Assembly (NCBI GenBank): GCA_039621445.1
Contig: CP154954.1
Location: 45,673,847-45,737,846, forward strand
Direction of reading: 5' to 3'
DNA from: Euglena gracilis
Lineage: Eukaryota
DNA length: 64,000 bases
The notes under the pieces were generated by a model. It was given only the letters and a program-made list of their open reading frames with translations. It was not told the origin of the DNA and did not search any database. Made by a program: the position numbers and the translations under genes. Shown here one piece after another: positions 19,973 to 49,005 of this stretch. The stretch's first letter is position 1. Every line of letters starts with the position of its first letter.

Positions 19973-20003
<31 letters not shown>

Positions 20004-30404: not shown

Positions 30405-30561
30405 GGGGCGAAGGAAATTAAAAACAAAAAAACAACTTTTTTTTGAAAAAAATGGCGGGGGGCGGCGAAGGTAAAAAAGACAGGTTTTTTCAAAAAAACG
30501 GGTTTTTTTCGAAAAAAAACGTGTTTTAAAACGATCGGTTAGAAAACGAGGGCCATCCCTG
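30405..30561 (-). mobile_element. Terminus of the same hAT family as 52194..53453
   Basis: Reverse complement of CAGGGATGGCCCTCGTTTTCTAACCGATCGTTTTAAAACACG... Confidence 0.75.
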
Positions 30562-31127: not shown

Positions 31128-31597
31128 AGGGATTTTTTTGGACAAGGACATTTGTTGAACATCAGAAAAAGAAGGCAACAAACAAACAAAAACAAGACTC
31201 ACGCCAATTGAAGCGTGCTGACTGAATAAACATACTCCAGGTAACATGGATTCAGGCGATAAATATACTGGTCGTAGAAGTCCTTCAGCAGCACACCACA
31301 GCAAACACCAACCTTGACTTCAACTCAAAATTGTCCACTTAAAACCAGAAATCCAAACTTGTCCTTTCATGTGGGTTCTCTTACGTAAACCGTTCGTTTA
31401 GTCGGTGGCCGCCTGTCATTCCTGTCATATGGAGTATGTACCAGTAGGCTGCGCCACTGGTCGGTGGATTCGGTTCGCCCCACCACCGTTTTTTAACTGG
31501 TTGTCATATGGAGAGGGTGAAATTAGGGTTATAGCGTTCTTCGTTGTAATTCGCCCGCGGGGAATCCTTAATTGCCTGGTGGGAAGTGTTTTTCTGT

Positions 31598-31623
31598 TCT
31601 TTCTGAGTGTCTGTTTTTTTTCG
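31598..31623 (+). other. Euglenid spliced-leader exon copy at the 5' end of retroelement copy 1
   Basis: TCTTTCTGAGTGTCTGTTTTTTTTCG matches the Euglena gracilis SL (ACTTTCTGAGTGTCTATTTTTTTTCG, from memory) at 24/26. It is followed by TCTCC rather than a GT donor. Confidence 0.85.
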
Positions 31624-31855
31624 TCTCCACACGTGCTCATGGCCTGAAAGCCCCGAGTGGGGTCTGAAGTTCAGAAGTACAATTGCCATCAGCAAGCAAC
31701 CCCAAGGTTTGAAGAGTGGATTTGAACTACCTGAAGTTCCAACCTACAACTCAAAAGTGCAAATCCGAGATACAGTACAGTACATACAGACACTGGAGTG
31801 GTTCATCTCCTTGAGGATGCAGTAGCAGCACAACATCATCATCTGCACCAGTTGG

Positions 31856-34524
31856 ATGGAAGTATTATCCCTGTTTCACTATACTTTGCTGTACCACCTG
31901 TGCTGTAACATAGCGTTCACAGTTCCAACCTGCACTGTGGCCCCAGGGCCTTATAAACATTTCACAGAGTTGGCCCCAGGGCCCAAGACTTCAGCCATGA
32001 TGCTGTCCAATTTTGCCCCAGGGCTCAACACATTTCAAGCCAAAACTGGCACAGGAGAGTTTTTCACAAATGTGGCCCCAGGGCCCCAGACTTTTGCCAT
32101 GATGCTGTCAAATTTTGCCACAGGGATCAACACATTTCCAACCAAATGTGGCACAGAAAAGATTTTCACAAATGTCGCCCCAGGGCCCAAGGCTTTTGCC
32201 ATGATGCTGTCAAATTTTGCCACAGGGATCAACACACTTCCAACCAAATGTGGCACAGAAAATTTTTTCACAGATGTGGCCCAAGGGCCCAAGGCTCCAG
32301 CCAAGATGCTGTCCAATTCTGCCCCAGGGCTCAACACATTCCAAGCCAAAACTGGCACAGAAATGTTTTTCAGAGATGTGGCCAAAGGGCCCAAGGCTCC
32401 AGCCAAGACGCTGTCCAATTCTGCCCCAGGGCTCAACACTTTCCAAGCCAAAACTGGCACGGAAATGTTTTTCAGAGATGGGGCCCCAGGGCCCGAGGTT
32501 TCAGCCAAGATGCTGTCAAATTTTGCCCCAGGGCACATCATATTTCCAGCCAAAACAGGCACGGAAGCAGAAAAGTTTTTCAAAGGTGTGGCCCGAAGGC
32601 CCGAAGCTTTTGTCAGGATGCTGTGGAATGTGGCCCCAGGGCACGACAGCCACGGACGGCAACCAAACAGGCTGAATATCACAGCAAAAGACCAGGAAAA
32701 AACACGGTCTGAGTACAGTCCCCCCCGTCATGGCAGGGGCGAAAGCCTTGCCATTTGTGGGGATATTGAAAGCAACCCAGGGCCCACAGAAACCCGCCCT
32801 CCCCAGCAAGAGGACGTTGAAATGGCCTCCGCCTCGCAGAGCTCTGCGTCGCCGCCGACGGAGCAGCCACTCCTCGGATCTTGGTTTCCAATGCACTCGA
32901 CGCCGCTGTTCTCGCCTGCTTTGCCCCAGGCTATAATGCCGCTTCCCATTTTGAACGGGGGCCCCAGGACACCTTCAGCAGAAAAAACCATGGTCATTGA
33001 CGAACTAGAGTCCCGGGTGCGCTCAGCGATTTCCGAAATTCACGGGTGTGGGCCACAGGGCCACGGGTTAATCGGGAATTTTGCGCCATCTCCACCACAA
33101 GGGCAGGAGCAGGAGCGCCTAAATGGTCGAAGACAGCAGCCCCCCGTGGCTCCAGCACCAGCGCAATCCTCGACGAGCGCTGATCCGCTGCAAGTCACTC
33201 CCTTCTCGCAACCTTGCCCACCACTGCAACCATCCTAGGAAGAGATTTCCCAAGACACTCGGGGCACCTTGGTCCATATCCCACGGGGAGCTTTGCAAAA
33301 CGTTGGGCTCGCCTTTTGCGGCATCCTCAGTCGCTTTGTGTCAAAGCCAGGTTGGGAGACCCTGCACGCACTTTGATGCTTCCCAAAAGCTGTGCTTGCT
33401 CCATTGAAGCGGAGCGGGAAAAGCCATTGGGCTGCAGTTGGACGGAAAATTACCGACAGGGCCAATGCCTACCTCAACCGGTCCACAGAAGATTCGTGGA
33501 ATGAGACGCGCCAAATCCGCGCTGCACAAAACCCAAAGAAGAGAACACGAAGTCAGACAAAAAATTTCGACGCTGAAAGCCAAGAAAGGTTGTGCAACCG
33601 TGTTCAAAGCCTTGTCAGCCATGGGGCGGTCAGCAAAGCCTGCCGCATGCTGACTTCTGATGGAATCCAAGATGCAGATGACCCACTGATCTTGGAACGG
33701 TTGGCTGCCTTGCACCCTCCTGAACCCCAACCTGGAAGGCAAAATTTGCCTCCGGACTTCCCGCGCCTCGAATTCGACCTGAGTGAAGATGCAACCAGGG
33801 AGCGCTTAATTGAAATACGGAAAGCAGTCATGTCTTTCCCGAAGGAATCCTCGCCAGGACCGTCTGGACTTCGGCCAGATCATCTTAAAGACATGCTCTC
33901 TGATCCTCTGGGGACACAATCAGATCAACTCCTCACAATTCTGGACCAATTCGTCCGAACATGTTTGACCAACGGAATCCACAACTCTGCGGCTTGGATT
34001 TTCGCTGGTGCCCGTCTGACTCCTCTTCGAAAACCCTGCAATCCAAGCGAAAACCTCGATGAGCTTGGCAATACCAACGCCATTCCTGACCCAAAGAAGG
34101 ATGGCACGCGACCAATTGCAGCTGGGGAATGCCTGCGCCGATTGGTGGGCAAATATTTGATGAGACACCCCAAAATCGGGGACCGCCTAAAAGAACTGCA
34201 GCCACTACAATGCGGTGTAGGGGTCCAGGGGGCATGTGAACTCATTGCCATGGGACTGCAGCAAGAAGTAAATCACCTGCATATGCAACAAGACAACACC
34301 TGGGCTTTGCTACAGGTAGATTTCAGCAATGCTTTTAATTGCGTAAAAAGAAAGACAGTCCTTGCTGAAGTGGCCAAACGCTGCCCGGAGGCGTATGTTT
34401 GGTTCGAGAGCTGCTACGCCGAACACAGCCCGCTCTTTTGTGGGTCATCACACCTTCGCAGTGCTTCTGGTGAACAACAAGGTGACCCTTGTGGCCCAGC
34501 CGGATTCGCCTTGGCGTTACAATC
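31856..34524 (+). pseudogene. Copy 1 polyprotein, 5' part (34-aa repeats, 2A-like motif, RT N-terminal half)
   Basis: One reading frame with two nonsense codons; GRGESLAICGDIESNPGP at 32732..32785. Confidence 0.85.
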
Positions 34525-34714
34525 TGGACGTCTCAGAATATTCTTTTGTTTTTATTGAAATCCTCGGATTCCCAATTTTCCTTGATGTCCCAATTGTTCC
34601 CAAAGACGTAACACAATCAATGAAAAGACATAACCAGAGCCAGCAGTCTGCACAGAGGAAAGGTTCGAATTAGGAATACAAAGTTCGGTTCAGGCGGTTA
34701 GTAAATAGTCCGCA
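34525..34714 (-). repeat. 3' LTR
   Basis: Two substitutions versus 43412..43601 by eye (188/190). Confidence 0.95.
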
Positions 34715-35189
34715 CACGCCCCCCATGCCGGAGGACGCGGCGCCACAGGCACAGGACGAAACGGCATCACACCACAAACAAAATGGCTTTACTATGGTTC
34801 AAGCACGAATGAATGGTGTTCAACACGAATTGTCCACAAAAAAGGTGCAGAACGACAAATGTCAACACAAAGGAAGGTAAAAGAGGTTACTTCCGACGTT
34901 CACCGTGGTCCCTTCACTTCGTGGTTGGCTTGCCGTTCAAAGGTAACACAAACCTGGGCGAAACTCCTCACATCAATGGCAGGTTTGTGACTGAAAGCCT
35001 TCAAAGGTTAGACAACAATCCACCCATGGCGAGGCGGGTTGGTGTCTCCTGACCCGAAAAACCATCCAAAAGGCCCCCTGGGGGGCTTGACTTTCCTCCC
35101 GCGTGACTGAAAGCACGATCAAAACATTTGGGGGGAGGCCAGGCTGTCTCTTGAGATGCCAACCCCCATTCACATTCTGAAACGTCGCA

Positions 35190-38100
35190 AAACATTCTGA
35201 GCGCCTGGCGTAGGATCGATTGTAAATTGTGATCCACACAATAATTCTTGAAAACCTCATTCATTCTGCCTCCTGGTTGCACAAAGCAGGGATTTGTGCT
35301 TATCCTTTTTGGGGGGGTCAAATTCTTATCCGTAGTTATCCGTAGTTATCCGTAGTTATCCGTAGTTATCCGTAATTATCCTTATTTGCTAAAATAATAA
35401 TATCCTTCCTGACAGGGGGTATCCATCTAGAAATAGCTGTAATTGAAAGGATGAAGAGAGTTGATCATCATAAACCTCAGGAATGCCTAAACTTCGTGAA
35501 ATGTGACAATCTAAACAGAAAACGACAAGCATCCAAGGCAGATGGAAACGACAATGTCCGGTGTGGGTTTTTAATCTTTCATCCACCGTTGTTCACAATC
35601 ACCGTTGCAGAACATGCCAACCAGACATTCATTTAGTGTGTTCACAAATCCGATTGTGAACACAAATTTTTTTTTGGTGAACACAGGTGATACACAATTT
35701 TTTTTTTGGTGAACACACGTGATACACAAATTTTTTTTGGTGAACACAGGTGAACACAAATTTTTTTTTGGTGAACACAGGTGAAAATATTTTTTGTGAA
35801 CTGAAACGTCAAACTTTTGTGAATGTAAACATTTCTAAAAGTTGGTGTAGTTTACTTAAACTCGGATTCAACTTGTACGACGTTTTTGGTGAACACAGGT
35901 GAACACAAATTTTTTTTGGTGAACATTGGTGAACACAAATTTTTTTTTGGTGAACATAGGTGATACACAATTTTTTTTTTGGTGATACACATGATACACA
36001 AATATATTTTTTTGGTGAACACACTAACTGAATGTCTGATGCCAACGGCTGCCTGCCGGAGGTTAGACAACATCTTCTGTCAGTTTTTAACATCAATGAC
36101 ACCGGCCAAACTGAAAGCAGCCCATCCCTTTATAGGATGCACGCTGCCAAATGGAAAATTGTTGCGAAAATGGGTTGATATGCTGCTTTGAGCACAGAAG
36201 CTGCATCAGAGACAAATGCAACAACCCTGCCAGCAGAAATTCTCATGCTCCTTAAAACCTCATTGACCTCCTTAGCAAGTTCTTCGAAAAAAGACGACAT
36301 TACTTTTCTTCTTAGAAAACAAACTCGGTGCTCAACGCCATCGTTTGGCCCTTGACAAACCAGAGTGCGAGTTGCCACAACCCCCAAACTTGGGCCCAAC
36401 CAACCAAAATATTGATAATGGCATGCCCTGGTGAATCTGTCTATTCATCAGTTCCAATCCACACTTTTTTGCCAGAGATTGATTTTCGAATGCTTGCGAT
36501 GTGGGTTGAAAACACCCGGCCCACAGACCGATACAACTGACTGCCAACCTTCAGGCTGCCATGAACAGTTGTATACTTCCGATCCAAGGCACGGATCGAA
36601 GGGTGGCCATCATCTCACCCAATTTTAGTTGCACTCGATGGATGGTTGTGCAACAGAAGGGTTCGTGGGGCCTAATTGATACACAGATGCTTTATAACAC
36701 AAAACAACTTCATCTCCAGGTTCCTCCATCAACGCTGCACTGCTCCGGGCTTTTTAACCACCTTTGCCCCTTCCAATTTCAGGAGGGAAATCCATTGACA
36801 GAGAGAAAGAATAGAGCCTGTGGTTGAGGATGTGGATGTGCACTCAAGCTTCCAGTTCATGCATCCTCATTCGTCAAATTTTTTGTTATCCGTAGTTATC
36901 CGTAGTTATCCGTAATTATCCTTATTTGGACTTTTTAGCTCCGTAGTTATCCGTAGTTATCCGTATCCGTATTTGTTTTGGGCGGGCTTATCCGTAGTTA
37001 TCCGTAGTTATCCGTAGTTATCCATTTCAGGATAAGCACAAATCCCTGCACAAAGGAAGCCACAGGCTCCCATGTACTGCTGCTTGCCGGAAAATTCTCC
37101 CACCAAACCAAAAATTTCCATCCCCCTTGGTACTTGTGCTTCAAAATCTTGTAAACATTGTAAAAACCCAATTGAGCTTGTTCTTCTTCTGACATCTGAA
37201 GGGGGGGATCCCCTCCCTGGTCTGGCATGGGGGTGTCACCTCACTGGGTCTCCCACAACCGCTTCACCGGTCAAAAGGTCTGGGTCTTCTTCCAAAAGGC
37301 TTTCTTCATGCAAAGCAACCTCCCACTTTTTGCACAAACCCAAAGAAACATCAATGACCCCTCCCAAAGATGGACTGCTTGCAATTTGCACGGAATTGAA
37401 CCTCGATTTGAGAACCCGAAAAGGTCCTTGCCAGGGGGGGGGAAGCTTGGGCCATGATTTGTTTGGCCATCTTTTGTTGTGCACCAAAACATAGTCATCT
37501 TCTTCAATTTTTGCTGGTACCCTCCCTTTGTTGGCACTCTCAAAATCTTTTTTCCTCAATTCTTTCAATCTCTGGGAAGCTCTTTCTTGAATTTCCATCT
37601 GGGTCAAAAGCCAAGAATGGGTTTCTGGATTTGTCACCGGTTCTGGGTAATTCCAACCTCCAAGGGTCTGCCCAAAACATTTCATGGGGTGACAACATTG
37701 TTGTGGGGAAATCTGCGAGTTCACAAAAATGTGCAATACGGGATCAGCTGCACCCAATTTTTGTCCTTGGAAGACAGACTCAATGCTCGCATATTCTGCA
37801 AAATTTTATTGACATTTTAAAAACCCGTTTGATCGGGGGTTTTTCTTCACGAAATTTCACGTGAGAGCTTTCAGGGGTCTGGTAAAAACCACTCTGTCTG
37901 GCGCACGTCGTTGTCACCTCCACGGGTTTCCAAAAACCAATCACCGGTCAAAATAAGTCTCAAAACCTTCTGGTTACCTCTTTTGACAAAAATGGGACAA
38001 ATTGAGACAAAGCAGCACTAGTCAAAGATTTGCACAAAACCAAAAAAACTTCAGGGGGTCGGGGAACCCGATGTGTTTGGTCTTTTGTTTGAATCTTTTG

Positions 38101-38690
38101 TCATCACAACAAATTTTTTCTTTTTTGCTCATCTCTTCTTTCCTCTGGCTCTTTTCCATCTGGGTCAAAAGCCGGGGTGGGGTCACCGGTTGGGGGTAAT
38201 TCCAACCTCCAAGCTGGTCTGTTTCATGGGGGGTGAATTGTGTGGGGATCTGCGTCGTCATCAATACGGGATCAGCTGCCCAATTCCTTGGAAATCTTGC
38301 GGTACTCATTTTGCGGGGGGTTTCGGGGTAGAGAAAACGATTTCGAATTTTCAAAATCTGTCTGACCAAAGTTCAGCCACGCAGTTCCAAACAGACTTTC
38401 CGGTTATGTTTTCTTGTGTGGGGGATGAATTGGCAAAAATCCACAGTGTGGGGGTCTGTTTTGTCATCAAACACAAAACTTTGCTCATGTTGGAATCGGT
38501 AAAGAACCTACCTTTCCACGCACTGGGCGGGCGGTGCAAATTTCCAACATGTCTTTCTTGGAAACCTTGGACTGAAAATGGCTCAAAAAGAACAACAAAG
38601 TCCTTTCAGCACCAACATGGTTGCTTGCCTTGTGACATTCATCCAAACAAACTTTCAACAAATGAGATGGAACAACCAACTTTCCTTCAA
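35190..38690 (-). pseudogene. Decayed integrase and chromodomain
   Basis: HHCC start (CHKASNHVG) at about 38600; WQGPFRV motif at about 37420; chromodomain YNVYKILKHKYQGGWKFLVWWENFPASSSTWEP at about 37060-37165, split by a hAT insertion. The core is scrambled, with an internal duplication (about 37590-37750 versus 38150-38280). Confidence 0.8.
35287..37048 (-). mobile_element. hAT-like element with a 7-bp TSD, inserted in the chromodomain end
   Basis: 19-bp TIR CAGGGATTTGTGCTTATCC; TSD CACAAAG; subterminal (TTATCCGTAG)n; residual VVAFVSDAASVLKAA transposase-like motif at about 36185-36230. Confidence 0.85.
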
Positions 38691-41600
38691 TACATGGCCT
38701 TGGCAGATCTGAACCAAAACTCATTGTCAATGAAACAGGGTTTTGAAACCTCCACTTTTTCCCAAAAATCCTTCAGCTCTGAATTCAAATAATCCTTTTC
38801 TGACACTTGCACTCTGTGGGACAAACTGAAAATCTTCTGCAAAAACAGGTCAAGCTGCACATCCATTTTCTGAAAAGCGTTCCTTGCTTCTTCCTCAAAA
38901 TGAATTTCAAATTTGTTCTCAAAATCAGCACGAGACAAAAAATCACACAATTCATTTTTGCAACCTGCCACATGAACGATATTCAGTTTGAACTGGTGCA
39001 AAAACACATACATCCTTCTCAGTCTTTTGTTGAGGGGGGGTTCACCCTTCAGGAAAGAGGTGGCTGCCTCATTGTCTGTCATCCACACAATTGGCAGATT
39101 TTGCAAAATCCTCGTTTGTGAAGCAATGGTCAGCACACCACTCAAAATTTCCTTTTCCCAGGTAGTGTATTTTTTTCTTGCCTCACTCCATTTCCAGTTG
39201 TAGTGGCCCAAGGGCACCAACCTCATTTCACTGGGGTAGTTGTTTTTCAGGGTTCCATCCACCTTCACACCACTTGTTCGAAAATTCTCAGGAATTTGTG
39301 TTTGTTGGAGGGTTTGCCACTGAAACAATGCTGAACCACCTCCCAAATCCGAACTGTCAGTCACCAAAACAATCTCTCCTGAACTCCTGGGGGTACCCAA
39401 AACATCAAGAGAAGACAATTTCCTTTTCAATGCATTCAAACAACTCTCCTCCTTTTCAGTCCACCTCCATTTCACATTCTTTTTCAGAAGGTCTGTGAGC
39501 GGGGCTGAGTCAAAAGTAAAACCTTTCACGTGTCTGCGGTAGAAATTCATGGCTCCCAAAATTCGCCTCAAATCCCTTTGATTCTGAACTCGAAAACTCA
39601 GAATTGGTTCAATGTTTCTTTTGTTTGCCTGCCACATTCCCCATCCCAACGAGAAACCCAAATAGTCAATGGACTGATTCAGAAAGGAACATTTGCTCAA
39701 TTTGATTCTCACTTGGTTCTTTCTGCAAACTTCAAACCACTTTTCCAAAAGATACAAATGATCCTCCTCAGAGTTTGCACCAACCCCTGTGTCATCAAAA
39801 AAAGAAGCCAGGTGTCCATCCTTCAAAATCTCTCTCACCCTCAAATCCGTTTTGCATTGGGAGGTTAGAATTTCCATCAGCTCCTGAAAAATACCCGGTG
39901 CATTACTTAGGCCAAACATCATTCTTTTGGGACGAAAACACCTCCCAGAAGGAATGCAAAATGCAGACAAATTTGCTGCTCTTTTTGTGATTGGGATTTG
40001 CCAATACCCACTCCTCATGTCCAGGGTACTTTTCCAGCGACATTTGGCCAAACTTTCAATCAAAACCTCCATGCTTGGCAAATAACCTGCATGTGCCTTG
40101 CTTCTGGCATTCAATTTTCCATAATGGATGACCATCCTTCTGGTACTTGACCCTTTTTTGTCCACCAAAAATGTGGGGCTGCACACCTGGGGGATTTCAC
40201 CAACCGGGAATTGCTCAATCAACCCTGACTTTAGCAATTCTTCACACTGAAGGTCAATTTCTTTTTCATCCTCCTGAGGCATGGGCCAACACTTTTGCCT
40301 TAGGGGTTTTCCTTCCCACTCAGGCTTCAGCTCAATGTCCATCAAAACAGGCAGGGGGGAAGACTCAGAAATTGTGGGCAATGGTCCAAAAACATCAGAA
40401 AATTTCACCAAAAGCTCATACAACCTGGGGTGGTCTCTGAATTTCTCAACTTCTTTTTCAAACTCTCCACTCAGATTCTCAGTAAACAATTTGCTGCTTT
40501 TTTCATCAGCCTTTTTCTGGGCCTCCAAAGTCCAAATCTTTTCATGCAAAACTTGGGAAATGCTTTTGAGTTCATCCATCTTGATTGTTGCCTTGGGAGT
40601 TTTCACAGGTTTTGCAAACTGCACATCTTCCACAGGCTGGGCCAGCTGGAAAAACATCACCTCCACATCTTTTCTCACCTCTTGAAAAAGACTCAGCTCA
40701 CTTTCAATGTCCTTGGTCAACTCAGCCAAAAAATTGTTGTTTTCATGCTCATTCATTGGTTCAAACACCACCACATTGTCCAACCATTCTTTCACCTTTT
40801 CATCTGATTCCTTGGGGGGAACATTCTCCAAAGGAAAACTGGGACTTTCAAAAACTTGCTTGTCTGCAGGTGGACTGGCAGGCTGGGGTGCCTGTTGTTG
40901 GGGGGGGACATCAGGAAGAACTGGGAAATCCACTTGAATTCCATCATCCACTGTGGGATACTTCCTGATCTCACCTCTCAGTTCATCCAAACTCCAATTC
41001 CTTGAAACTTTTCTGAGCCAACTGACAATTTTGGGGTCCAAAAGCTCAAAATCCACTTTGAATTGCACAGTGTCCACCACACTCACAAAAGTGTTCACCT
41101 TTTTGCACCTGTCACCCACAAACAAGGGAACCCCACTTGAAATTTTCACCCTGGCCACTGTCACCCTTTCCAGCAGGGGGGACCAGTACTGGTCCACCCA
41201 GTCTGGGTGTACCAGGACCATTTTTGTTTCTTCAATGCACAACTTTGTCACCACTTTGCTTAGTTGGCTGAAGGGGGGGTTTGCCCACAGAAACTTGGAA
41301 GCACCAATGTCACACAACAACCTTTCCCATGAATACCTGTAGGCTGAATTCCCTTTTGTCATGTACAAAGACTGGGTGTGGTTCAGGTGGTTTGCAAAAA
41401 GATCAATGCAAATCTGACCCTCAGAAATCTTCAATTCATCCAAAGCTTTTGTCTTCACTGGCTTCACCAAAGTGTAGCTTTCTGTCTTGAAAAGTCTGAA
41501 AATTATTTTGATGGTGTGGTCCCCATCATGGCTCTGAAGTAAAAACTCCTCACCATCAACGATGATTCTGGGGGGTCTGGTCAGCAACCCACCAAAAAAT

Positions 41601-41710
41601 TCACTTTCAGTAAAGTCAGTCCCCAAAACTGCCTCGAAGGCATTTGTTTCAACAACAACCGCTTTAAGCTTTAGAACTTTTCGTCCCAACTCCAGGCTCA
41701 CCTCACACAC
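38687..41710 (-). CDS. pol: protease C-terminus, N6-adenine MTase-like domain, RT, RNase H
   Basis: VLGTDF; DLFA...WANPPF...LVHPDW...W; SPTFLVDK, TLDMRSGYWQI, MMFGLSNAP and FFDD; TDSS, EKE, TDN and DFLSR. Confidence 0.9.
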   Translation of the reverse strand: MCEVSLELGRKVLKLKAVVVETNAFEAVLGTDFTESEFFGGLLTRPPRIIVDGEEFLLQSHDGDHTIKIIFRLFKTESYTLVKPVKTKALDELKISEGQICIDLFANHLNHTQSLYMTKGNSAYRYSWERLLCDIGASKFLWANPPFSQLSKVVTKLCIEETKMVLVHPDWVDQYWSPLLERVTVARVKISSGVPLFVGDRCKKVNTFVSVVDTVQFKVDFELLDPKIVSWLRKVSRNWSLDELRGEIRKYPTVDDGIQVDFPVLPDVPPQQQAPQPASPPADKQVFESPSFPLENVPPKESDEKVKEWLDNVVVFEPMNEHENNNFLAELTKDIESELSLFQEVRKDVEVMFFQLAQPVEDVQFAKPVKTPKATIKMDELKSISQVLHEKIWTLEAQKKADEKSSKLFTENLSGEFEKEVEKFRDHPRLYELLVKFSDVFGPLPTISESSPLPVLMDIELKPEWEGKPLRQKCWPMPQEDEKEIDLQCEELLKSGLIEQFPVGEIPQVCSPTFLVDKKGSSTRRMVIHYGKLNARSKAHAGYLPSMEVLIESLAKCRWKSTLDMRSGYWQIPITKRAANLSAFCIPSGRCFRPKRMMFGLSNAPGIFQELMEILTSQCKTDLRVREILKDGHLASFFDDTGVGANSEEDHLYLLEKWFEVCRKNQVRIKLSKCSFLNQSIDYLGFSLGWGMWQANKRNIEPILSFRVQNQRDLRRILGAMNFYRRHVKGFTFDSAPLTDLLKKNVKWRWTEKEESCLNALKRKLSSLDVLGTPRSSGEIVLVTDSSDLGGGSALFQWQTLQQTQIPENFRTSGVKVDGTLKNNYPSEMRLVPLGHYNWKWSEARKKYTTWEKEILSGVLTIASQTRILQNLPIVWMTDNEAATSFLKGEPPLNKRLRRMYVFLHQFKLNIVHVAGCKNELCDFLSRADFENKFEIHFEEEARNAFQKMDVQLDLFLQKIFSLSHRVQVSEKDYLNSELKDFWEKVEVSKPCFIDNEFWFRSAKAMY

Positions 41711-41714
41711 TCCT

Positions 41715-42965
41715 CACCGTTGCCGATCTGCAGGGGTACCGCAGCACTACGTTGAATTTTATTCTCTGGAACACATTTCTTAGAAACTGCAGTTATGGTG
41801 GCCCCAGTGTCCAAAATGGCTTGAATTTCCTTTCCATAAACCCTCACTGGCAAAAGATAAGTTTTACACACCATCTGGAGCAATTGTAAAGCATCAGCCT
41901 TTCTCTTTTTGGGGTTCTCACCCTGGGGGGTAACCTGGGTTTGCACTCCCTGGGGTTGAACCGAAGGGGTCCCTTTGCCTGCCCCCTTCTGGGCTGCTGC
42001 CTTCTTAAACTTTTCTTTTGACCAACATCTGTCTTCATAATGCCCTTTTTTTGTGACAAAATCGACAGAAAATTGTGGCTCCAAATCGTGGGGCTGGGGT
42101 GTCATCAACTTTTCTTTCACCCTTGCCTTTGCCTTTTCCTTTGCCTTTTCCTTTTCCACCAGATTTTCCACCTTTTCCAGATTCTGGGACATTTTCACCA
42201 ACTTTTTCAGATTGATCAGGGGGTCATTCAATCAATGGTCTGAGATTTTCTTTTTTCAGCAAATTCCTCTCCAACCAATCTTCAGAACTTTTTTCCAAAA
42301 TCGTTTTTCTCAAATCTGTGAATGTCTCAGAACGATGTTTGTAAAATCTGTCTGCCCTGATGTCTGCATACATTCTGGGGTGTAATTTCCTCAGCAAAAC
42401 CAAAAACTTTTCCTGTTCACTCATGGCCTGGGGGCTCAACCTGGCCATCAAATTGTCCAACTCAATGAAAAGTTTTTTGATGTCTTGGGGTTCGGGGTTC
42501 TGGGAAAGTGCTGGCAATTTGTCAATGGCAGACCTCAAAGTCATGTCATTTTCCAGTGTTGGGAACAAATTTGCAATTTCCAACAGCACTTTTTCAAAAT
42601 CATCATTCTCATCCATCACTTTTTCAACCAGTTTTTTCACCTTGGGGGTGCAACATTCCAACAGCCAATCCTTTTTCTGGACATTTCCAAATGCAATTGC
42701 ACCAGTTAACCTCAACCATCTGCCAAAATCTTTCAAAAACTCAGGCCAATTTGCACCATCAAACTCTGGCAATTTCACAGGGGGTAATCTTGAACTTTGG
42801 GTTGAACTTTGGCTGGGGTTGCTGGAATTTGGTTCCACAATTTGCTTCAGAAAATGTTTCAACCTGGGTGATGGGGTTCACAGGGGTAAACACAGACTGA
42901 CTGTTGCTGGCTGATTTGATTTCCAATTCTTGCAACCTTCTTTCCAAATCTTCAATGGAGGACAT
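41715..42965 (-). pseudogene. gag, zinc knuckle and aspartic protease (frameshifted)
   Basis: PVKLPEFDGANWPEF gag motif; CRFCHKKGHYEDRC across a frameshift near 42045; AILDTGA protease motif. Confidence 0.85.
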
Positions 42966-43395
42966 TTCTGCAGATCACCTTCAAAAAAAACTCAACCACT
43001 GGCTCTGTAAACTGGGAGAAACAGAAACACTGGCCAACCCAAAAAGACAAACAAAAACTGAAGAAACCAGAACAGAAAACCAACCACTGGGTTCAGGACC
43101 AGGTCAGCAAGATGATGAAGAACTTGCCTCCACCAAGATCTTGTTCTGGACAGCAAGGTGAACAACACCACTTACAAACTTCCTCAACCAAATAACCAAT
43201 ACAACAACTGTTGACAAATTCTCCACTGTGAACTTGTTCACCACAACCTCAATGTCAACTTCCTGTTGAAGGTGTTGTTCTGTACCAGCAACTTGGTTAA
43301 CCTTGCCTTCTGGAAGTCCAACTTCTGGATCTTCAACAACCAGTGAAACAATGTTGAATCTCCTCGAAGACGTCTTGGACGATTGGAACAACAAA

Positions 43396-43407
43396 CCTCT
43401 GCGACCA
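43396..43407 (-). promoter_or_regulatory. Primer binding site, probably tRNA-iMet type
   Basis: TGGTCGCAGAGG, 4 nt inside the 5' LTR; one mismatch to the metazoan iMet-type PBS TGGTAGCAGAGG. Confidence 0.6.
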
Positions 43408-43411
43408 ACTT

Positions 43412-43601
43412 TGGACGTCTCAGAATATTCTTTTGTTTTTATTGAAATCCTCGGATTCCCAATTTTCCTTGATATCCCAATTGTTCCCAAAGATGTAACA
43501 CAATCAATGAAAAGACATAACCAGAGCCAGCAGTCTGCACAGAGGAAAGGTTCGAATTAGGAATACAAAGTTCGGTTCAGGCGGTTAGTAAATAGTCCGC
43601 A
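43412..43601 (-). repeat. 5' LTR
   Basis: Direct repeat of 34525..34714. Confidence 0.95.
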
Positions 43602-43606
43602 CAATC

Positions 43607-45248
43607 TCTCGTTGAGTCCTTGCAAGACGTGGTGCCACTCCAATTGTGGTATTTGGATGATGGACACATCCTGGGAACCCTCCCACAATTACATGCAGCA
43701 ATTACAGAAATCCAACGACAGGGGACGCTACTAGGCATACACCTCAACCCAAAAAAATGCCGCCTGTGGGGACCTGCAGCAACAGAAGCCAATCGTGCTG
43801 AAATGCCGCCAAACAGCCCACTTCGTGCAGTCCCAATCGTGAACTACTCCCCCGATTCTGGTATACGTGCCTTGGGAATCCCGGTTTGCCATCCACAAAG
43901 CGGTGACTTTGCGGGGGAAGTGTGGGCTGAACGTGCAACAGGTGTGCAGAAAGCTTGCCGGGCCCTTTTGAACCTGCCGCAAGCCCATATTCAGTTCTGC
44001 CTTTTGCGATCTTGCCTAGATGCATGCAAAGTTAACGACCTCATGCGTGCAACAGAACTGGGGCAGGCAAAAGACGCATGTGCACTGCTGACTAAAGAAA
44101 TCAGGAACACATTGAGCAACATTGTTGGATCCCCAATCGATGACAACCAATGGGCTCAGGCCACCCTGCCCGCGCGTCATGGCGGACTCGGAATTCGGGA
44201 CCCATCGTTGGAACGTCTCCCAGCACGCATGTCCGGCATTGTGACATTTGTCAGCAATGGCAGACGCACCTTGGGCCTGGCAGACCGAGGAGTACCGAAA
44301 GACACTGCGGAGTGCTTGTCCTCTGCCAACTCCATCCTCGAAGGAACGCCCCCAACGGAAACATGGGCCACGGATGTATCACTCCTGAACGAAGCCCAAA
44401 GCCCTCACATTCAACAGAAGTGGTGGGGTGAATGCTTTGCGAAACAACGACAAAAGGCATTATCTTCCAACCTTCACGGCCAAGACGCTGTCCGGTTCGC
44501 AAGCCAACAACGGCCCCACGCAATGGCCTGGGCTTCTGACACACCATCCTCTGGACTGAAAACATTGGTCGCATCTGCAGAATTCAAAGGCTTTCTAAAG
44601 TGGTCACTGGGAGCACCAGTATGTCCACCAACGGGATCTACGTGCCCACGCTGCTCCAAGCCAATGGACAACCTGGGTAATCACCTTGTATGCTGCAGCT
44701 CAAATGGCATCACGCGGCGACACGGTGCGATCCAGGACTTTGTGTTCCAATTGGCACATGATGCCGGGTTTACAGCAAAAAAAGAACAAGGTGGTTCAGA
44801 GAGAACACGCCCGGGCGATGTGCTCATCAGCAGACTTGACGCCAATGGTCCTGGAGCAGTGGACATCACAGTGAGACACACAGCAGCACCGTACAGACCG
44901 TTGCGTGACGCAGCTGAACTAACCGAATGGTATGAACGCCAAGAGAAGGAAAAGCATTCAAAATATGACGCCACCTGTAGGAGGCTGGGATGGACCTGCA
45001 TTCCATTTGTTGTCGACTGCTATGGCGGCCTAGGCCAAGAAGCGCTAACCCTAATGTCAACACTGATGAAGCTTCTCCTCGGTCAACAAGATGCATGGTC
45101 AAAACACAAAACTGAAGCCAACACATGGCAACTTCTATCAATAACTGTTGCGCGAGAGATCGCGCGACAAGTAATCTGGGGACGTTATGCAGGTAACGAC
45201 ACAGATCCAGAAGCAACCAACACCATACACCAGCCGTACTGTCTGTAA
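43607..45248 (+). pseudogene. Copy 1 polyprotein, 3' part (RT YLDD, zinc knuckle, RLE endonuclease)
   Basis: Continues in frame after removing the LTR element and one TSD (ALQSLVESLQDVVPLQLWYLDDG as in copy 2). Confidence 0.9.
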
Positions 45249-45814
45249 AGAAGACCATTGCGATCCCTGGTCCCAGAGTAAATAATTCACCTAAGACCAT
45301 CCACAACTCTTCATCAAGCAAACAACAGTACCCAATCATCCATAACCTGTGCCTCACATTGGCAAGACAAGTGGCCCGCCAGCCGGCATGGGGAACTATG
45401 GCGGTACCTACCTGGAGCGGTGGATCCCACCACCCAAAGCCAATACGAATTGGAGTGAGCAATTTGACCAACCGCTCTCCCACCCCATCCCTCCAAACAA
45501 AAACAAACAAAAACCACAAGCACACACACACCACACACACACACACACACACCAGCCACCACGCCCCCCGCCTCTCACCCCCAACGCACCTCACACAACA
45601 TCCGCCAAGCTACCCCTCGCCCCTCCGTCTTACCTGCTACCAAGGCCGCTCGTCTTTACACTCCCACACCTGTACCTCGGACAGGCCGCTGATTCCGCTT
45701 CTGTATATAGCCCTACCCCTGAACACTCAAATCCAGTAGGCTGTGCCACTGGTCGGTGGACTCGGCTCGCCCCACCACCGGACTGCTGTCGTTTTCAGAC
45801 GTAAAAAAAAGGGT

Positions 45815-47369
45815 TTTTTTGCCCGAGAGGTACAGGTCACGCTGCAAGGTGCGAACGCTTTCTGTGTGAATGCATCTCAATTCTCTATTGCCTCCATTCT
45901 TGAATTCAGCGTCTGAGTCAGTTTTGAAATTTTGTTCTTATTTCAGGTGGAAGGGTTGGGTGCATACCAGATGGACACAGGAATGATCATCCCTGGTAAC
46001 CCGCGCAGGGTTTTGAATTTGATCGAAGATTTGAAGGTTGCTGCAATGGGCCAGCGACACACCTCATCATCGCCAACTGGCGTATTACGAATGTTAATGT
46101 GTGAAAAACTTTGCCTGCAAGTTGCGGTCCTGCGGTTGTAATTCTCTCTTGCAGTGTTAAATGCCTTGCGCCTCTTGCAGTTTCTGTTGCTCTTCTTTTT
46201 TTGTTTTGGCGTGTGTCTCTGGCCAATTTGTCGGCCAGGAAAAAAAATTAAATTCTCGCAATTTCAATTTTTTTTTGCAATCAAATTGCTTAAAAAATCT
46301 GGAGTTGGAAACAAAATTTTTGTTTGCAAGACTTTCCCCTGAAAAGCACAAACTTTTTGCACATAGTCCGCCCAGGATTCACCTTCAGTGATATGAAGAA
46401 GGTTTTTCAGCCCCGGTTTGACTGTTTTTCTGTTTGACTTTTCCCGTGAGGGGAAACGGCGCTCCTCCTGGCACAGTAGAGCAGGGAAAGTGCTTTCCGC
46501 GAAGAAGTGAAAAAAAAGGAAAACCTGCCGACAACGCTGAGCGACCCAGGTGACAAAAAGCGATTGCAGCGTGAGGATTTTTTCGACTGCCGCCGCACGC
46601 AAAATATTACTTGTTCTCTATTTTGTCCAGTCGCATAAAACTTGACGTTTTGTGTATCGTGCCGAGTGGTGCTTTGAGGGTACTTTTTCACCCAAGCGAC
46701 TTCTGTTCGTAAAATCGCCCAGAGGGGAGGCTTGAGAGAGCAAAAAAGCTATTCGGATATTTTTGAAAATTTTGAAGAAAAAAAAATTCCGCAATTTTTC
46801 TTTCACAGCTTCCTCAAAAGGAAAAATAACACTCAGACGAAGAGGTGAGAAGGAATCAAAATGAGGCCACTGTGGCAGGTTGGAAATTCCTTTTTTTTTG
46901 AAAGAAAAACAATTTCCAAATTTTGATCATTTTTGCCAACAACATGAAACAAACTGTTCAAAGAAACAAAAGCAACCAGAACAGTCAAGCAAAGAAATTT
47001 GCAGGCGACAAAAGGCAGGGAAAAAACAGCAGTAAGATTCCCAATCCGCGGACAGTCAGAGGCTGACAGGCAAAGTTTTTCACACATTAACATTCGTAAT
47101 CCGCCAGTTGGCGATGATGAGGTGTGTCGCTGGCCCATTGCAGCAACCTTCAAATCTTCGATCAAATTCAAAACCCTGCGCGGGTTACCAGGGATGATCA
47201 TTCCTGTGTCCATCTGGTATGCACCCAACCCTTCCACCTGAAATAAGAACAAAATTTCAAAACTGACTCAGACGCTGAATTCAAGAATGGAGGCAATAGA
47301 GAATTGAGATGCATTCACACAGAAAGCGTTCGCACCTTGCAGCGTGACCTGTACCTCTCGGGCAAAAAA
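45815..47369. mobile_element. Foldback element with ~300-bp near-perfect inverted arms
   Basis: 45815..46117 is the reverse complement of 47067..47369, and the ORF track shows mirrored peptides. No clear TSD. Confidence 0.8.
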
Positions 47370-47482
47370 CACTTCCCACCAGGCAATTAAGGATTCCCCG
47401 CGGGCGAATTACAACGAAAAACGCAATAGCGTCGGTTAAGGACATGGGGCGAGTACTACCATCACTTTTAGGATTTGCGTTG

Positions 47483-47502
47483 TGAGTGTCTATTTTTTTT
47501 CG
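47483..47502 (+). other. Euglenid spliced-leader exon copy at the 5' end of retroelement copy 2
   Basis: TGAGTGTCTATTTTTTTTCG is a perfect match to the 3' 20 nt of the SL; ATG follows at 47517. Confidence 0.85.
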
Positions 47503-47516
47503 TCTGCATAATCACC

Positions 47517-48305
47517 ATGGCTGCAAAGGGGCCGGATGGCCCTCCAGAAGACCCCAAGACTCAAGACAATATACTCCTTGTCAACCAAGCTGCTACCACA
47601 ACCAACCCTTCAAGTACACCCACTGTTGCAGTGGACACTGGACAGTTGGAGCTGCTGGCCAAGATGTTGTTGCCGCTGTTGGTGCCGGTGCTAACCACTG
47701 CTGTGGCACAACGACTCATTGCTGACCGCCCTGTACATAGTGACAGAGAAAGTCAAGACAGCAGCTCACAGAGAAGGAAGAGGACATGGCAAGAGAGGGA
47801 AGAGCATGAAGAGTACCTACAGAGAAGGTTTGGAAGAGATTACAAGCCCCCATGGCAGAGAGGTCGACCCAGTTATCATATATCTCAACAGAGTTCTCCT
47901 CAGCCCCAGCTCCACCAGCAAGTGAGTCTGGGGCCCCCCTGTACAGCAAGCCCAACAGTGGGCATTCCACAGTCAGGCCCATCAGTGGGCATTCCAATGA
48001 ACAGCCCATTCCAATGCCCACCAGTGGGTAGAAGTCAAGTATGTCCATCTGTCACATCAATCATACAAATGTACATTCCATCACAGACCAACCTTTGGGG
48101 TGAACCCCAGCAATCTCAGCAACCACTGCAATCAAACTGGAGCAGAGAAGATGACCAGAGGAGGAATTGGACCAGAGAAGAAGAGCAGAGAAGGAGAGAG
48201 GTTGAACTCTTCAGAAGCCTCAGAGCCTTTCTCAGCACAGGCCAGAGTACACAAGTCCCCCCCCTCCCAACACCATTACACTACCTGGCCTGCCAGCACC
48301 CTTAA
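47517..48305 (+). CDS. First ORF after the SL in copy 2 (Pro/Gln/Arg-rich, unknown function, possibly gag-like)
   Basis: ATG 14 nt after the SL; 262 codons; no recognised domain. Confidence 0.5.
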   Translation: MAAKGPDGPPEDPKTQDNILLVNQAATTTNPSSTPTVAVDTGQLELLAKMLLPLLVPVLTTAVAQRLIADRPVHSDRESQDSSSQRRKRTWQEREEHEEYLQRRFGRDYKPPWQRGRPSYHISQQSSPQPQLHQQVSLGPPCTASPTVGIPQSGPSVGIPMNSPFQCPPVGRSQVCPSVTSIIQMYIPSQTNLWGEPQQSQQPLQSNWSREDDQRRNWTREEEQRRREVELFRSLRAFLSTGQSTQVPPLPTPLHYLACQHP

Positions 48306-49005
48306 TCCCAGATGTGGTACTGGCATCACCATCAGCCTTCCAATGTGCTTTTCTGCCTGCAGCTTTCCCTTTTGTCTCACAAAGTCCCCCCCAAAGAGGG
48401 GACAATTCAACACAATACCTTCACCCAGTAAAACAAATGGATCAACAATTTCTTCCAAAGGCAACTCCAAATCAAAAGGAGTCAGCAAAACAACCCCCCC
48501 CACCCAAAAGAGGAGGATCATCAACCCCAGCCAAATGCAACTCCAAAAAATCTCAGCACCAGCCCCCCAATATCAGCCCCCCCTGCAAAAGGGGGGGGGC
48601 CAGGCCCACCGTTTCGCATTTTTAAAATTCCAACAAAACCCACCATGTTTGATGGCACACAGTGGGCCAAACTGGGCACAGTGATCCTGCAGGAGGAACC
48701 CAGCCCCTTTCAAAGGCAAGACCCCCCCCAGGCAACAGATTTACCAGCCTCCCCACCCAACACCCCCCTGGAAGGAGTTCCAGTTTGGGAAAAACCAGAG
48801 TTTCGGTCCCCCAGGGAAGAATTTTTTTGGAGAAGGCGCATGAGACAGCAAGCAGGAGGCTTTTTATTTCACGAGATGGTCGCCAGAAAACTGGCCAACA
48901 TTCAGGAAAAGTGGGTCGACATTGGCAGAACAGTGGACATTCGGCAGTCACAAAAAATGGTGCACACAGACATGAAAATCACGTTGCCACTGGCAGCGCC
49001 AAACG

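What the first reader, a model, noticed from the sequence alone, without database searches (positions are those of the whole stretch)
31598..31641. Retrotransposon copy 1 begins with a spliced-leader exon
Seen: a 24/26 SL match followed by TCTCCACACGTGCTC-ATG with no GT donor, directly upstream of the CRE-like element. Known: CRE/SLACS/CZAR elements of trypanosomatids insert into SL RNA genes. Inference, three alternatives: the element RNA is trans-spliced and the SL is reverse-transcribed with it; the element inserted at the exon end of an SL gene or relic; or the element carries its own SL mimic for translation. No SL/5S array is recognisable here. A GTATATA motif occurs near both 3' ends (45703, 55935), but I cannot verify it as SL intron sequence.
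Basis: partly seen in the sequence, partly recalled or inferred. Interest (0 to 1): 0.75.

Follow-up and report, generated by a model that had tools for sequence, protein, structure and literature searches.

The report
Spliced leader heads Euglena retrotransposon copies
Two decayed copies of an R2-like jumping gene in a Euglena-type genome each start with the 26-base spliced leader that this organism normally adds to its messenger RNAs, and for one copy the flanks show that the leader arrived as part of the inserted element rather than lying there beforehand.

Summary
Window 31598-31623 matches the published Euglena gracilis spliced leader (SL) at 24 of 26 bases, is followed by TC rather than a GT donor, and sits 15 nt before an ATG.

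A second SL copy (23 of 26) heads copy 2 at 47477-47502, 14 nt before an intact 262-codon ORF. No other SL-like site exists in the window; about 0.01 is expected by chance.

The element is a non-LTR retrotransposon of the R2 kind, with a reverse transcriptase followed by a C-terminal zinc knuckle and restriction-like endonuclease. "CRE-like" was not tested.

Copy 1 is a discrete 14.2-kb insertion. Its two flanks are contiguous in two other copies of the flank. The insert starts 4 nt before the SL, ends in A8GGG, and duplicates a T run. So the SL came in on the RNA template, and no SL gene pre-existed at that site.

A distant database relative (P0139) also carries the SL, translated, directly before its first Met.

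The best reading is that the trans-spliced element mRNA was reverse-transcribed to its 5' end. Co-transcription from an SL RNA gene, or an element-encoded SL, cannot be excluded, because the SL RNA intron sequence was not obtainable.

The parts
31598..31623 (+). SL copy at the 5' end of element copy 1 (24 of 26; mismatches at SL positions 1 and 16)
31594..31597 (+). 4 extra bases (CTGT) between the target break and the SL; first bases of the insert
   Evidence: flank identity with the intact site ends at 31593
31624..31641 (+). 15-nt leader and ATG of copy 1; the ORF is broken here (ATG GCC TGA)
31594..45813 (+). element copy 1 as inserted (14,220 nt including a nested LTR element), from CTGT+SL to A8GGG
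31589..31593 (.). T5, left copy of the target-site duplication. The filled site holds 5+7 T; the intact sites hold 6 or 7
45814..45820 (.). T7, right copy of the target-site duplication
31530..31593 (+). left half of target sequence Y
   Evidence: (I8)
45815..46117 (+). right half of target sequence Y
   Evidence: (I1)
47067..47428 (-). uninterrupted copy of Y (the empty site): ...GGGAAGTGTTTTTTGCCCGAGAGG...
56888..56965 (-). third, 81-82% similar copy of Y, also uninterrupted at the insertion point
33377..34558 (+). copy 1 ORF2, N-terminal part up to the first half of the reverse transcriptase
43620..45248 (+). copy 1 ORF2, second half of the reverse transcriptase, linker, CCHC and restriction-like endonuclease
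45703..45813 (+). 3' tail of copy 1: GTATATA, motif M core (45730-45780, two hairpins), ...CAGACGT, A8 (45803-45810), GGG
47477..47502 (+). SL copy at the 5' end of element copy 2 (23 of 26; mismatches at positions 1, 3, 6)
47503..48305 (+). 14-nt leader, ATG at 47517 and an open 262-codon ORF1 of copy 2 (no homologue found)
47477..55589 (+). element copy 2, from the SL to the end of detectable homology with copy 1; the true 3' end is not defined
53414..55264 (+). copy 2 ORF2 C-terminal 616 aa (reverse transcriptase, linker, CCHC, restriction-like endonuclease); this was the query for searches and the fold

Best explanation
The window holds two old, broken copies of a non-LTR retrotransposon of the R2 kind, with a reverse transcriptase followed by a zinc knuckle and a restriction-like endonuclease (RLE). 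The host uses the Euglena gracilis spliced leader. Each copy carries one nearly complete 26-nt SL as its very first element sequence, 14-15 nt before the first ATG. SHOWN: the SL belongs to the mobile DNA. Copy 1 is an insert whose flanks are contiguous elsewhere. It starts 4 nt before the SL, ends in a short poly(A), and is bounded by a duplicated T run. It was therefore made by target-primed reverse transcription of an RNA that had the SL at its 5' terminus. INFERRED: that RNA was the element's mature mRNA, and it received the SL by ordinary SL trans-splicing at an acceptor just upstream of TCT(C/G)CA...ATG, as Euglena mRNAs do. A full-length cDNA then fixes the SL in the genome. Such daughters have CG, not AG, before the junction. 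They cannot regain the same junction by trans-splicing, so SL-less master copies with an AG acceptor should exist elsewhere in the genome.
For: There are 2 SL-like sites in 64 kb, both at the 5' ends of the 2 copies that have a 5' end, against 0.01 expected. Empty-site test: 31530-31593 plus 45815-46117 read through without interruption in 47067-47428 and in 56888-56965 (2 of 2 paralogues). The filled site gains 5-6 T, and the insert ends in A8GGG. The first 45 nt after the SL are alike in the two copies although the next 1-3 kb are not (38 of 2000 shuffles and 9 of 2000 random window places score as well). The SL therefore belongs to the same unit as the reverse transcriptase. The copies are true paralogues: each supplies the empty site for a transposon nested in the other. 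P0139, a 1751-aa relative with a restriction-like endonuclease (32% identity), starts MTGRRRK-FLSVYFFS-MPTG. FLSVYFFS is exactly SL nt 3-26 read in frame 3, and it lies directly before a Met. This is 1 of 240 fetched homologues; the other 239 start at a Met or inside the ORF and say nothing either way. Of the 5 SL mismatches, 4 lie in SL positions 1-6 (by hand, p about 0.01 if mismatches were spread evenly), as expected for errors at a capped RNA 5' end. The motif M tail of copy 1 recurs in two short insertions flanked by target-site duplications and without an SL (M1 31435-31501; M3 56306-56170 on the minus strand, with A10). This fits 5'-truncated copies sharing the element's 3' tail.
Against: No RNA data are available, so trans-splicing of this element is inferred from what Euglena does in general. 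No SL-less master copy with an AG acceptor is present in the window. Copy 2 has no recognisable target-site duplication, poly(A) or M tail, so the insert test rests on copy 1 alone. A target-site duplication inside a T run cannot be sized exactly. GGG after the A8 is not explained. The element's relatives with this endonuclease type are, as recalled, often specific for SL RNA genes, which raises the prior of the rival below. I could not compare the 3' tail with the SL RNA intron. In P0139 the SL is internal to the reading frame, so that record shows an SL written in the template but not how it got there.
Confidence: 0.55

Rival explanations
1. The SL comes from an SL RNA gene. The family inserts exactly at the exon/intron border of SL RNA genes or their dispersed copies, and is transcribed from the SL RNA promoter as SL exon-element-SL intron. 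Copy 1 is then either an ectopic retro-copy of such a co-transcript, or an insertion into an earlier SL RNA retro-pseudogene that had landed in Y.
For: The endonuclease is of the R2 type. As recalled, CRE/SLACS/CZAR and NeSL-1 elements of this type target SL genes, and SLACS is transcribed from the SL promoter. GT follows the putative 3' ends in both copies (45703, 55935), and GTATATA is rare in the window. From GTATATA to CCACCACCG is about 80 nt, near the roughly 75-nt introns reported for an SL RNA of a related group (Diplonema, PMC10161547 passage). M1 is followed by T6. Some Euglena SL RNA genes are dispersed (PMC2784804 passage). The Y target (AGTGTTTTTTG) loosely resembles the 3' half of the SL (direct reading; weak).
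Against: The empty site has no SL gene. The upstream flanks of the two SLs are unrelated, and no 5S rRNA or SL array is present. The sequences after GTATATA do not align between the copies. The two 3' regions share 39 7-mers, so one shared motif is not evidence. Between M2 and M3 the core is 96% conserved, but the supposed 5' part of the intron is not (118 of 500 shuffles score as well), which is the opposite of what a splice-donor region should show. M1 and M3 have no SL exon upstream. I see no A-U-run-G Sm-type site in the tail. The fold of the tail is not unusual (z = -1.28).
Confidence: 0.2
2. The SL is a heritable 5' module of the element, an SL mimic. After a first capture it is transcribed from an internal promoter starting at SL position 1, and it is kept by selection because an SL-headed RNA is translated or stabilised like a normal Euglena mRNA.
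For: The SL is present on two copies whose 5' kilobases and 3' untranslated regions have otherwise diverged beyond alignment, and on a relative at 32% identity. Daughters lack an AG acceptor, so a lineage that keeps the SL needs some way to avoid re-splicing. There are no tandem truncated relic SLs of the dinoflagellate kind.
Against: There is no evidence for a promoter. The SL-to-ATG spacing differs (15, 14 and 0 nt), which is more easily explained by different acceptors. The mismatches to the canonical SL differ between copies and cluster at the extreme 5' end, as expected for fresh canonical SLs that decayed after insertion. A cap with the SL-specific modifications would not come with mere transcription (recalled knowledge).
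Confidence: 0.15
3. Chance resemblance, or an assembly or cDNA contamination artefact.
For: The SL is T-rich and of low complexity. A perfect 303-bp inverted repeat next to copy 1 (I1) could point to assembly problems.
Against: 0 of 100 shuffles give 2 sites. Both sites lie at homologous positions of two diverged, stop-ridden copies that carry nested transposons with their own target-site duplications, which is not what cDNA contamination looks like. The junction is supported by a second, 81% diverged paralogue.
Confidence: 0.03

Closest known systems
Relic spliced leaders in retroposed dinoflagellate genes (mRNA recycling)
   Same: An SL that is normally added in trans is found written in genomic DNA at the 5' end of a retro-copied unit, which implies reverse transcription of a mature trans-spliced RNA (PMC3942190 passages; PMC5585692 seen in a search listing only).
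   Different: Here the carrier is the retrotransposon itself, not a host gene, and the host is a euglenid. Only one SL is present per copy, with no tandem truncated relics. One copy has a direct filled-site versus empty-site proof.
CRE1/CRE2, SLACS and CZAR of trypanosomatids, and NeSL-1 of C. elegans (SL-gene-specific retrotransposons with a restriction-like endonuclease)
   Same: Non-LTR elements with a C-terminal restriction-like endonuclease that are physically linked to SL sequence in SL-trans-splicing hosts. SLACS-type reverse transcriptases are annotated in the euglenozoan Diplonema (PMC10161547 passage).
   Different: As recalled, those elements interrupt the SL exon (after nt 11 in trypanosomatids) inside SL gene arrays, so only part of the SL lies 5' of them and the rest lies 3'. 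Here the whole SL heads the element, nothing SL-like follows it, the site is not an SL gene, and no array is present. Clade membership was not tested.
R2 retrotransposon
   Same: Closest solved relatives by profile (9nl3_A, E 1.6e-23) and by fold (top 7 of the fold hits, E 1.9e-15 to 4e-12, TM 0.51-0.58 over about 690 columns). Same order of reverse transcriptase, linker, CCHC and restriction-like endonuclease.
   Different: 13-16% identity. Not in rDNA. Has a poly(A) end. Has upstream ORF(s) with several 2A-like motifs. SL at the 5' end instead of a ribozyme-processed 5' end (the latter recalled).
L1Tc/ingi of trypanosomatids
   Same: LINEs of Euglenozoa that must get a translatable 5' end in an SL-dependent host; they use 2A peptides (recalled).
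   Different: They start with the Pr77 promoter and give unspliced transcripts (PMC1874656 and PMC8190864, titles and abstracts in the listing). They have an AP-type endonuclease (recalled). The Euglena element starts with the SL itself.

Membership tests
Non-LTR retrotransposon with restriction-like endonuclease (R2 superfamily) | Reverse transcriptase domain of the LINE type | tested here: met
   Pfam RVT_1 in both copies (E 2.2e-12 and 5.1e-06). The profile of 26 relatives hits R2 proteins at E 1.6e-23 and LINE-1 ORF2p at about 2e-11.
Non-LTR retrotransposon with restriction-like endonuclease (R2 superfamily) | C-terminal CCHC knuckle followed by a PD-(D/E)XK-type nuclease, with no N-terminal AP endonuclease | tested here: met
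   Nearly invariant C451, C454, H464, C468, R476-H477, E498, R506-P507-D509, D524 and K554 in 26 sequences. These align to the R2 C-terminus, though weakly on their own (domain i-E 27). The model (pLDDT 89.4) matches whole R2 proteins best. No Exo_endo_phos hit in the upstream ORFs.
Non-LTR retrotransposon with restriction-like endonuclease (R2 superfamily) | Insertion hallmarks of target-primed reverse transcription (target-site duplication, 3' A run, 5'-truncated copies) | tested here: met
   Copy 1: T5-6 duplication and A8. M3: 7-11-nt duplication and A10. M1: 12-nt duplication. Copy 2: not met.
CRE/SLACS/CZAR clade (SL-gene-specific) | Insertion inside the SL exon of SL RNA genes in tandem arrays | tested here: not met
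   The complete SL lies 5' of the element. The target Y has no SL gene. No 5S rRNA or second SL nearby.
CRE/SLACS/CZAR clade (SL-gene-specific) | Reverse transcriptase groups with CRE-clade references in a phylogeny | not testable with these tools
   No reference sequences of CRE, SLACS, CZAR or NeSL could be fetched. None of the 240 listed homologues bears such a name.
SL RNA gene | SL exon followed directly by a GT donor and an intron of about 75 nt with an Sm-type site | tested here: not met
   The SL is followed by TCTCC or TCTGC and, 14-15 nt later, an ATG. No Rfam hit.
SL RNA gene | The 3' tail of copy 1 (45703-45782) equals the SL RNA intron | not testable with these tools
   PMC452961 and PMC312261 are not held. 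A text search for a 16-nt piece of the tail found 0 papers.
Retro-copy of a trans-spliced mRNA (relic-SL type) | SL at the extreme 5' end of the inserted DNA, A run at the 3' end, flanking duplication | tested here: met
   Copy 1. Copy 2 shows the SL only.
Retro-copy of a trans-spliced mRNA (relic-SL type) | A source locus without the SL, with an AG acceptor at the junction, and transcripts that carry the SL | not testable with these tools

The most novel reading that the evidence does not exclude
The SL is not a passive scar but the element's way of getting a usable 5' end. Either the family inserts exactly behind the SL exon of SL RNA genes and rides their promoter and cap, or SL-headed copies are transcribed from SL position 1. 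Either way the element RNA passes as a trans-spliced mRNA without being trans-spliced. The conserved two-hairpin M tail would be the matching 3' recognition module, also used by short non-autonomous copies.
Probability: 0.2. Interest if true: 0.85.

Novelty: new variant of a known kind. Interest (0 to 1): 0.6.

Why it matters
If the reading holds, full-length copies of a Euglena LINE carry a built-in mark of having passed through a mature, SL-capped mRNA. That would link SL trans-splicing and retrotransposition directly in a euglenid. It would give a simple genomic marker for full-length insertions and for the trans-splice acceptor that the element uses. It would also extend the "relic SL" phenomenon from dinoflagellate host genes to a retrotransposon in Euglenozoa. 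The contrast with trypanosomatids is informative: there, SL-associated elements cut into SL genes, and L1Tc carries its own promoter. The finding further raises a testable question about how SL-headed daughters, which have lost the AG acceptor, are expressed at all. I found no description of this in three full-text searches. The 2019 draft-genome paper does not contain the words retrotransposon or transposable in its main text.

Tried and rejected
1. SL intron comparison. The Euglena SL RNA papers (PubMed 1868836 and 1579464; PMC452961 and PMC312261, ids confirmed from reference lists) are not held. A search for Euglena, SL RNA, Sm-binding and intron gave 3 papers, none with the sequence. A 16-nt piece of motif M is in 0 papers.

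2. Motif M as a known RNA. There is no Rfam match at E up to 10 in 45400-46000 except two chance snoRNA rows. No tRNA was found. The fold z-score is -1.28.

3. Target-site duplication or 3' end of copy 2. No repeat of 10 nt or more of its 5' flank occurs downstream. The tail is not alignable with copy 1.

4. Homologues of copy 2 ORF1, to look for SL-translated N-termini. None was found at E up to 0.001 among 733 candidates in the near-length range.

5. Clade assignment by names. No CRE, SLACS or NeSL names occur among the 120 plus 120 listed hits. The protein atlas gave only unnamed reverse transcriptase clusters. A single-sequence PDB search gave only a chance hit.

6. NCBIfam scan. It failed on a frame error of mine and was not repeated.

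7. Homology of the 57 nt upstream of the M core between M3 and copy 1. Not significant (118 of 500 shuffles).

8. SL complementarity in the tail (ACACTCA against SL 7-13). By hand, about 0.13 such 7-mers are expected, so I dropped it as evidence.

9. The genome-contig collection (bacteria and archaea) was not scanned because it is irrelevant. No supplements were read.

Full report
WHAT IS AT THE COORDINATES

Window 31598-31641 reads TCTTTCTGAGTGTCTGTTTTTTTTCG, then TCTCCACACGTGCTC, then ATG. The E. gracilis spliced leader is printed as ACTTTCTGAGTGTCTATTTTTTTTCG in PMC6242988 (passage). The SL primer in PMC5654406 agrees (passage). The window matches 24 of 26 bases, with mismatches at SL positions 1 and 16. 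The SL is followed by TC, so this is not an SL RNA gene.

The match is not chance. A 24-nt pattern with up to 3 mismatches hits two sites against 0.01 expected, and 0 of 100 shuffles reach two. A 19-nt core gives the same two sites.

The second site, 47477-47502, matches 23 of 26 bases (mismatches at positions 1, 3 and 6). It is followed by TCTGCATAATCACC and by an ATG at 47517 that opens a 262-codon ORF. The host is therefore a euglenid that uses the E. gracilis SL. Nothing else identifies the organism.

THE ELEMENT

Two copies share four blocks at 88-94% DNA identity:
- 32627-33562 with 50770-51685
- 33736-34252 with 51677-52193
- 34245-34525 with 53454-53734
- 43602-45470 with 53729-55589

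Both copies have Pfam RVT_1. A profile of the copy 2 C-terminal ORF with 24 database relatives hits R2 proteins best in the PDB (9nl3_A, E 1.6e-23). LINE-1 ORF2p follows at about 2e-11. The alignment shows nearly invariant C-x2-C...H...C, RH, E, RPxD, D-x-T-V and K positions after the reverse transcriptase. These line up, weakly on their own, with the R2 zinc knuckle and restriction-like endonuclease. An AlphaFold model (pLDDT 89.4) has R2 proteins as its seven best PDB matches (E 1.9e-15 to 4e-12, TM 0.51-0.58 over about 690 columns).

The element is therefore an R2-superfamily non-LTR retrotransposon with a restriction-like endonuclease. Whether it belongs to the CRE clade was not tested. 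No CRE, SLACS or NeSL names occur among the 240 listed homologues, and I had no reference sequences.

The two copies are genuine paralogues. Each provides the empty site for a transposon nested in the other:
- An LTR retrotransposon at 34525-43601 sits in copy 1. It has 192-bp LTRs with 2 mismatches, TG...CA ends and a 5-bp duplication CAATC.
- A 1260-bp element at 52194-53453 sits in copy 2. It has CAGGGATGG terminal inverted repeats and an 8-bp duplication.

THE SL BELONGS TO THE ELEMENT

Beyond the SL, the first 45 nt of the two copies are more alike than chance. Only 38 of 2000 shuffles and 9 of 2000 random window places reach the observed score. The following 1 kb of copy 1 and 3.3 kb of copy 2 are not alignable. 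Copy 1 looks like an internally deleted form with a 102-bp tandem array. In copy 2, 49471-49819 is homologous to the N-terminal part of full-length relatives (P0121). So the SL, the short leader and the ATG are the shared 5' terminus of the unit that carries the reverse transcriptase.

THE SL CAME IN WITH THE INSERT

The 64 nt before copy 1 (31530-31593) and the 303 nt after it (45815-46117) lie side by side in an inverted copy at 47067-47428. They also lie side by side in a third, 81-82% similar copy at 56888-56965.
- Intact site: GGGAAGTG-T6 or T7-GCCC.
- Filled site: GGGAAGTG-T5 | CTGT + SL ... CAGACGT A8 GGG | T7-GCCC.

Copy 1 is thus one 14,220-nt insertion (31594-45813). It starts 4 nt before the SL, ends in a short A run, and duplicates 5-6 T. 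These are the marks of target-primed reverse transcription of an RNA with the SL at its 5' end.

For copy 2 I found no target-site duplication, A run or defined 3' end. The test therefore rests on one copy.

A THIRD CASE FROM OUTSIDE THE WINDOW

Among the 240 homologues fetched, one begins MTGRRRK-FLSVYFFS-MPTGPP. This is P0139: 1751 aa, 32% identical, with the same C-terminal knuckle and nuclease motifs. FLSVYFFS is exactly SL nt 3-26 read in frame 3 (TTT CTG AGT GTC TAT TTT TTT TCG), and it lies directly before a Met.

The other 239 start at a Met or within the ORF, so they carry no information on their 5' ends and are not misses. I cannot see P0139's DNA. The codon before the SL peptide (K = AAR) implies a mismatch at SL position 2. 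The SL is internal to that record's reading frame, as it would be in a genomic copy.

Four of the five SL mismatches in the window copies lie in SL positions 1-6. By hand, p is about 0.01 if mismatches were spread evenly. This fits errors or added bases at a capped RNA 5' end. That reading is an inference.

THE 3' TAIL AND THE GTATATA QUESTION

GTATATA is at 45703 and 55935 as stated, and it is rare in the window (4 sites against 0.32 expected). However, the two 3' regions share 39 different 7-mers. What follows the motif does not align between the copies (140 of 1000 shuffles score as well).

In copy 1 the motif is followed by a 52-nt core "M" (45730-45780, two predicted hairpins), then about 22 nt, then A8. 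M occurs three times in the window and nowhere else, against 0 expected.
- M1 is a 67-nt insert at 31435-31501 between 12-nt direct repeats TGTCATATGGAG.
- M3 is a 137-nt insert on the minus strand (56306 to 56170). It ends in A10 and lies between GCAGTAC repeats.
- The copy 1 tail and M3 both end CA(G/C)ACG(T) plus an A run.

M1 and M3 have no SL upstream. The core is 94-96% conserved, whereas the stretch between GTATATA and the core is not (118 of 500 shuffles score as well).

I read M as the 3' tail module of this LINE group, shared with 5'-truncated or non-autonomous copies. It is not a known RNA family, and its fold is unremarkable (z = -1.28).

I could not compare it with the Euglena SL RNA intron. 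The two papers that print the gene are not held, and text searches found nothing. This is the main gap in the analysis.

HOW IT MOST LIKELY WORKS

Shown: the SL is the first sequence of the mobile unit, and it was present on the RNA that was copied into DNA.

Inferred: the element's pre-mRNA is trans-spliced like other Euglena mRNAs, at an acceptor just before TCT(C/G)CA. The mature SL-capped, polyadenylated mRNA serves both for translation and as the template. Its restriction-like endonuclease nicks the target, and a cDNA that reaches the 5' end writes the SL into the genome. The different SL-to-ATG spacings (15, 14 and 0 nt) fit different acceptors in different lineages.

Daughters have CG, not AG, before the junction. 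They cannot regain the same junction by trans-splicing, so SL-less masters are predicted. I give this reading 0.55.

RIVALS

- SL-gene origin (0.2). The family may target the exon/intron border of SL RNA genes and be co-transcribed from their promoter, with copy 1 an ectopic retro-copy of that co-transcript or an insertion into an SL RNA retro-pseudogene. The prior is raised by the known SL-gene specificity of CRE/SLACS/CZAR and NeSL-1 (recalled) and by dispersed SL RNA genes in Euglena (PMC2784804 passage). It is lowered by the unrelated upstream flanks, the lack of any array, the non-alignable sequences after GTATATA, and the poor conservation of the supposed donor-proximal part.
- Encoded SL mimic with an internal promoter (0.15). 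Nothing here excludes it. It would best explain how SL-headed copies stay active.
- Chance or artefact (0.03).

COMPARISON WITH WHAT IS KNOWN

The mechanism is closest to the relic SLs of retroposed dinoflagellate genes (PMC3942190 passages). Here, though, the carrier is the retrotransposon itself, the host is a euglenid, and there is a single SL with no tandem relics.

It is not the CRE/SLACS arrangement. The whole SL precedes the element and the site is not an SL gene.

Trypanosomatid L1Tc solves the 5'-end problem differently, with the Pr77 promoter and unspliced transcripts (abstracts in the listing).

Three full-text searches found no description of SL-headed retrotransposon copies in Euglena:
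- Euglena, retrotransposon, spliced leader (18 papers)
- E. gracilis, genome assembly, transposable elements, LINE (25 papers)
- non-LTR retrotransposon, spliced leader, trans-spliced, reverse transcribed (60 papers)
I read listings, plus passages of PMC10161547, PMC3942190 and PMC6366073. Subscription papers and supplements were not seen.

VERDICT

I rate the finding a new variant of a known kind, with interest 0.6.

Noticed in passing
49549-49572, 49957-49980, 50638-50661, 50884-50907 (copy 2); 32762-32785 (copy 1): Several 2A-like 'ribosome skipping' motifs, D(V/I)(E/Q)x(N/E/Q)PGP, lie upstream of the reverse transcriptase in one reading frame. The same motif occurs one to three times in 22 of the 240 fetched homologues. 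Multiple 2A sites appear to be a family trait of these elements with a restriction-like endonuclease.
   Followed up: partly
34525-43601 (minus-strand ORF 38687-41710): A young LTR retrotransposon is nested in copy 1. It has 192-bp LTRs with 2 mismatches, TG...CA ends and a 5-bp duplication CAATC; copy 2 is its empty site. Its ORF has reverse transcriptase, RNase H and a weak Dam adenine-methyltransferase hit (E 4.5e-4, below cut-off). This fits the 'Euglena DAM-LTR' elements described in bioRxiv 10.64898/2026.05.21.726589 (passages).
   Followed up: partly
41102-41482 (minus strand) versus P0122, P0136, P0141, P0143: The Dam-like part of the nested LTR element is homologous (26-36% identity) to a segment of four full-length relatives of the R2-like element. 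Three relatives (P0121, P0141, P0143) carry Pfam Dam. The same methyltransferase module therefore occurs in both LTR and LINE lineages. Copies 1 and 2 themselves show no such segment.
   Followed up: partly
52194-53453; related piece 30405-30562 (inverted): A 1260-bp non-autonomous DNA transposon sits in copy 2. It has CAGGGATGG terminal inverted repeats and an 8-bp duplication TTGCTATG (hAT-like by duplication length, recalled). Copy 1 is its empty site. A 91% similar end lies upstream of copy 1.
   Followed up: partly
45815-46117 and 47067-47369: A 303-bp inverted repeat, 99.7-100% identical, with a 949-bp spacer lies between the two element copies. One arm is the right half of the copy 1 target. 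It is either a recent inverted duplication or an assembly artefact.
   Followed up: no
31435-31501; 56170-56306 (minus strand): Two short insertions consist of little more than the 52-nt two-hairpin motif M of the copy 1 tail. Each is flanked by direct repeats (12 nt TGTCATATGGAG; 7-11 nt GCAGTAC), and one has A10. They are candidate SINE-like or extremely 5'-truncated copies.
   Followed up: partly
31858-32667: A 102-bp tandem repeat (6 units, 61-87% identity to the reference unit) lies in the copy 1 reading frame. It encodes 34-aa units with a degenerate ...VAPGP... motif and is related to 50731-50785 of copy 2.
   Followed up: no
18810-21600: Satellite-like arrays occur here: about 195-bp units (10 copies), then 12-bp units (42 or more overlapping copies). 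There is an extreme C-over-G skew (GC skew -0.43 at 20-22 kb).
   Followed up: no
27427-27762; 35656-36025: Short tandem arrays: about 26-bp units with G runs (...GGGGGGGCTGAC TTTTTT...), and 31-bp units (TTTTTTTTGGTGAACACAGGTGA...). The latter lies inside the nested LTR element.
   Followed up: no
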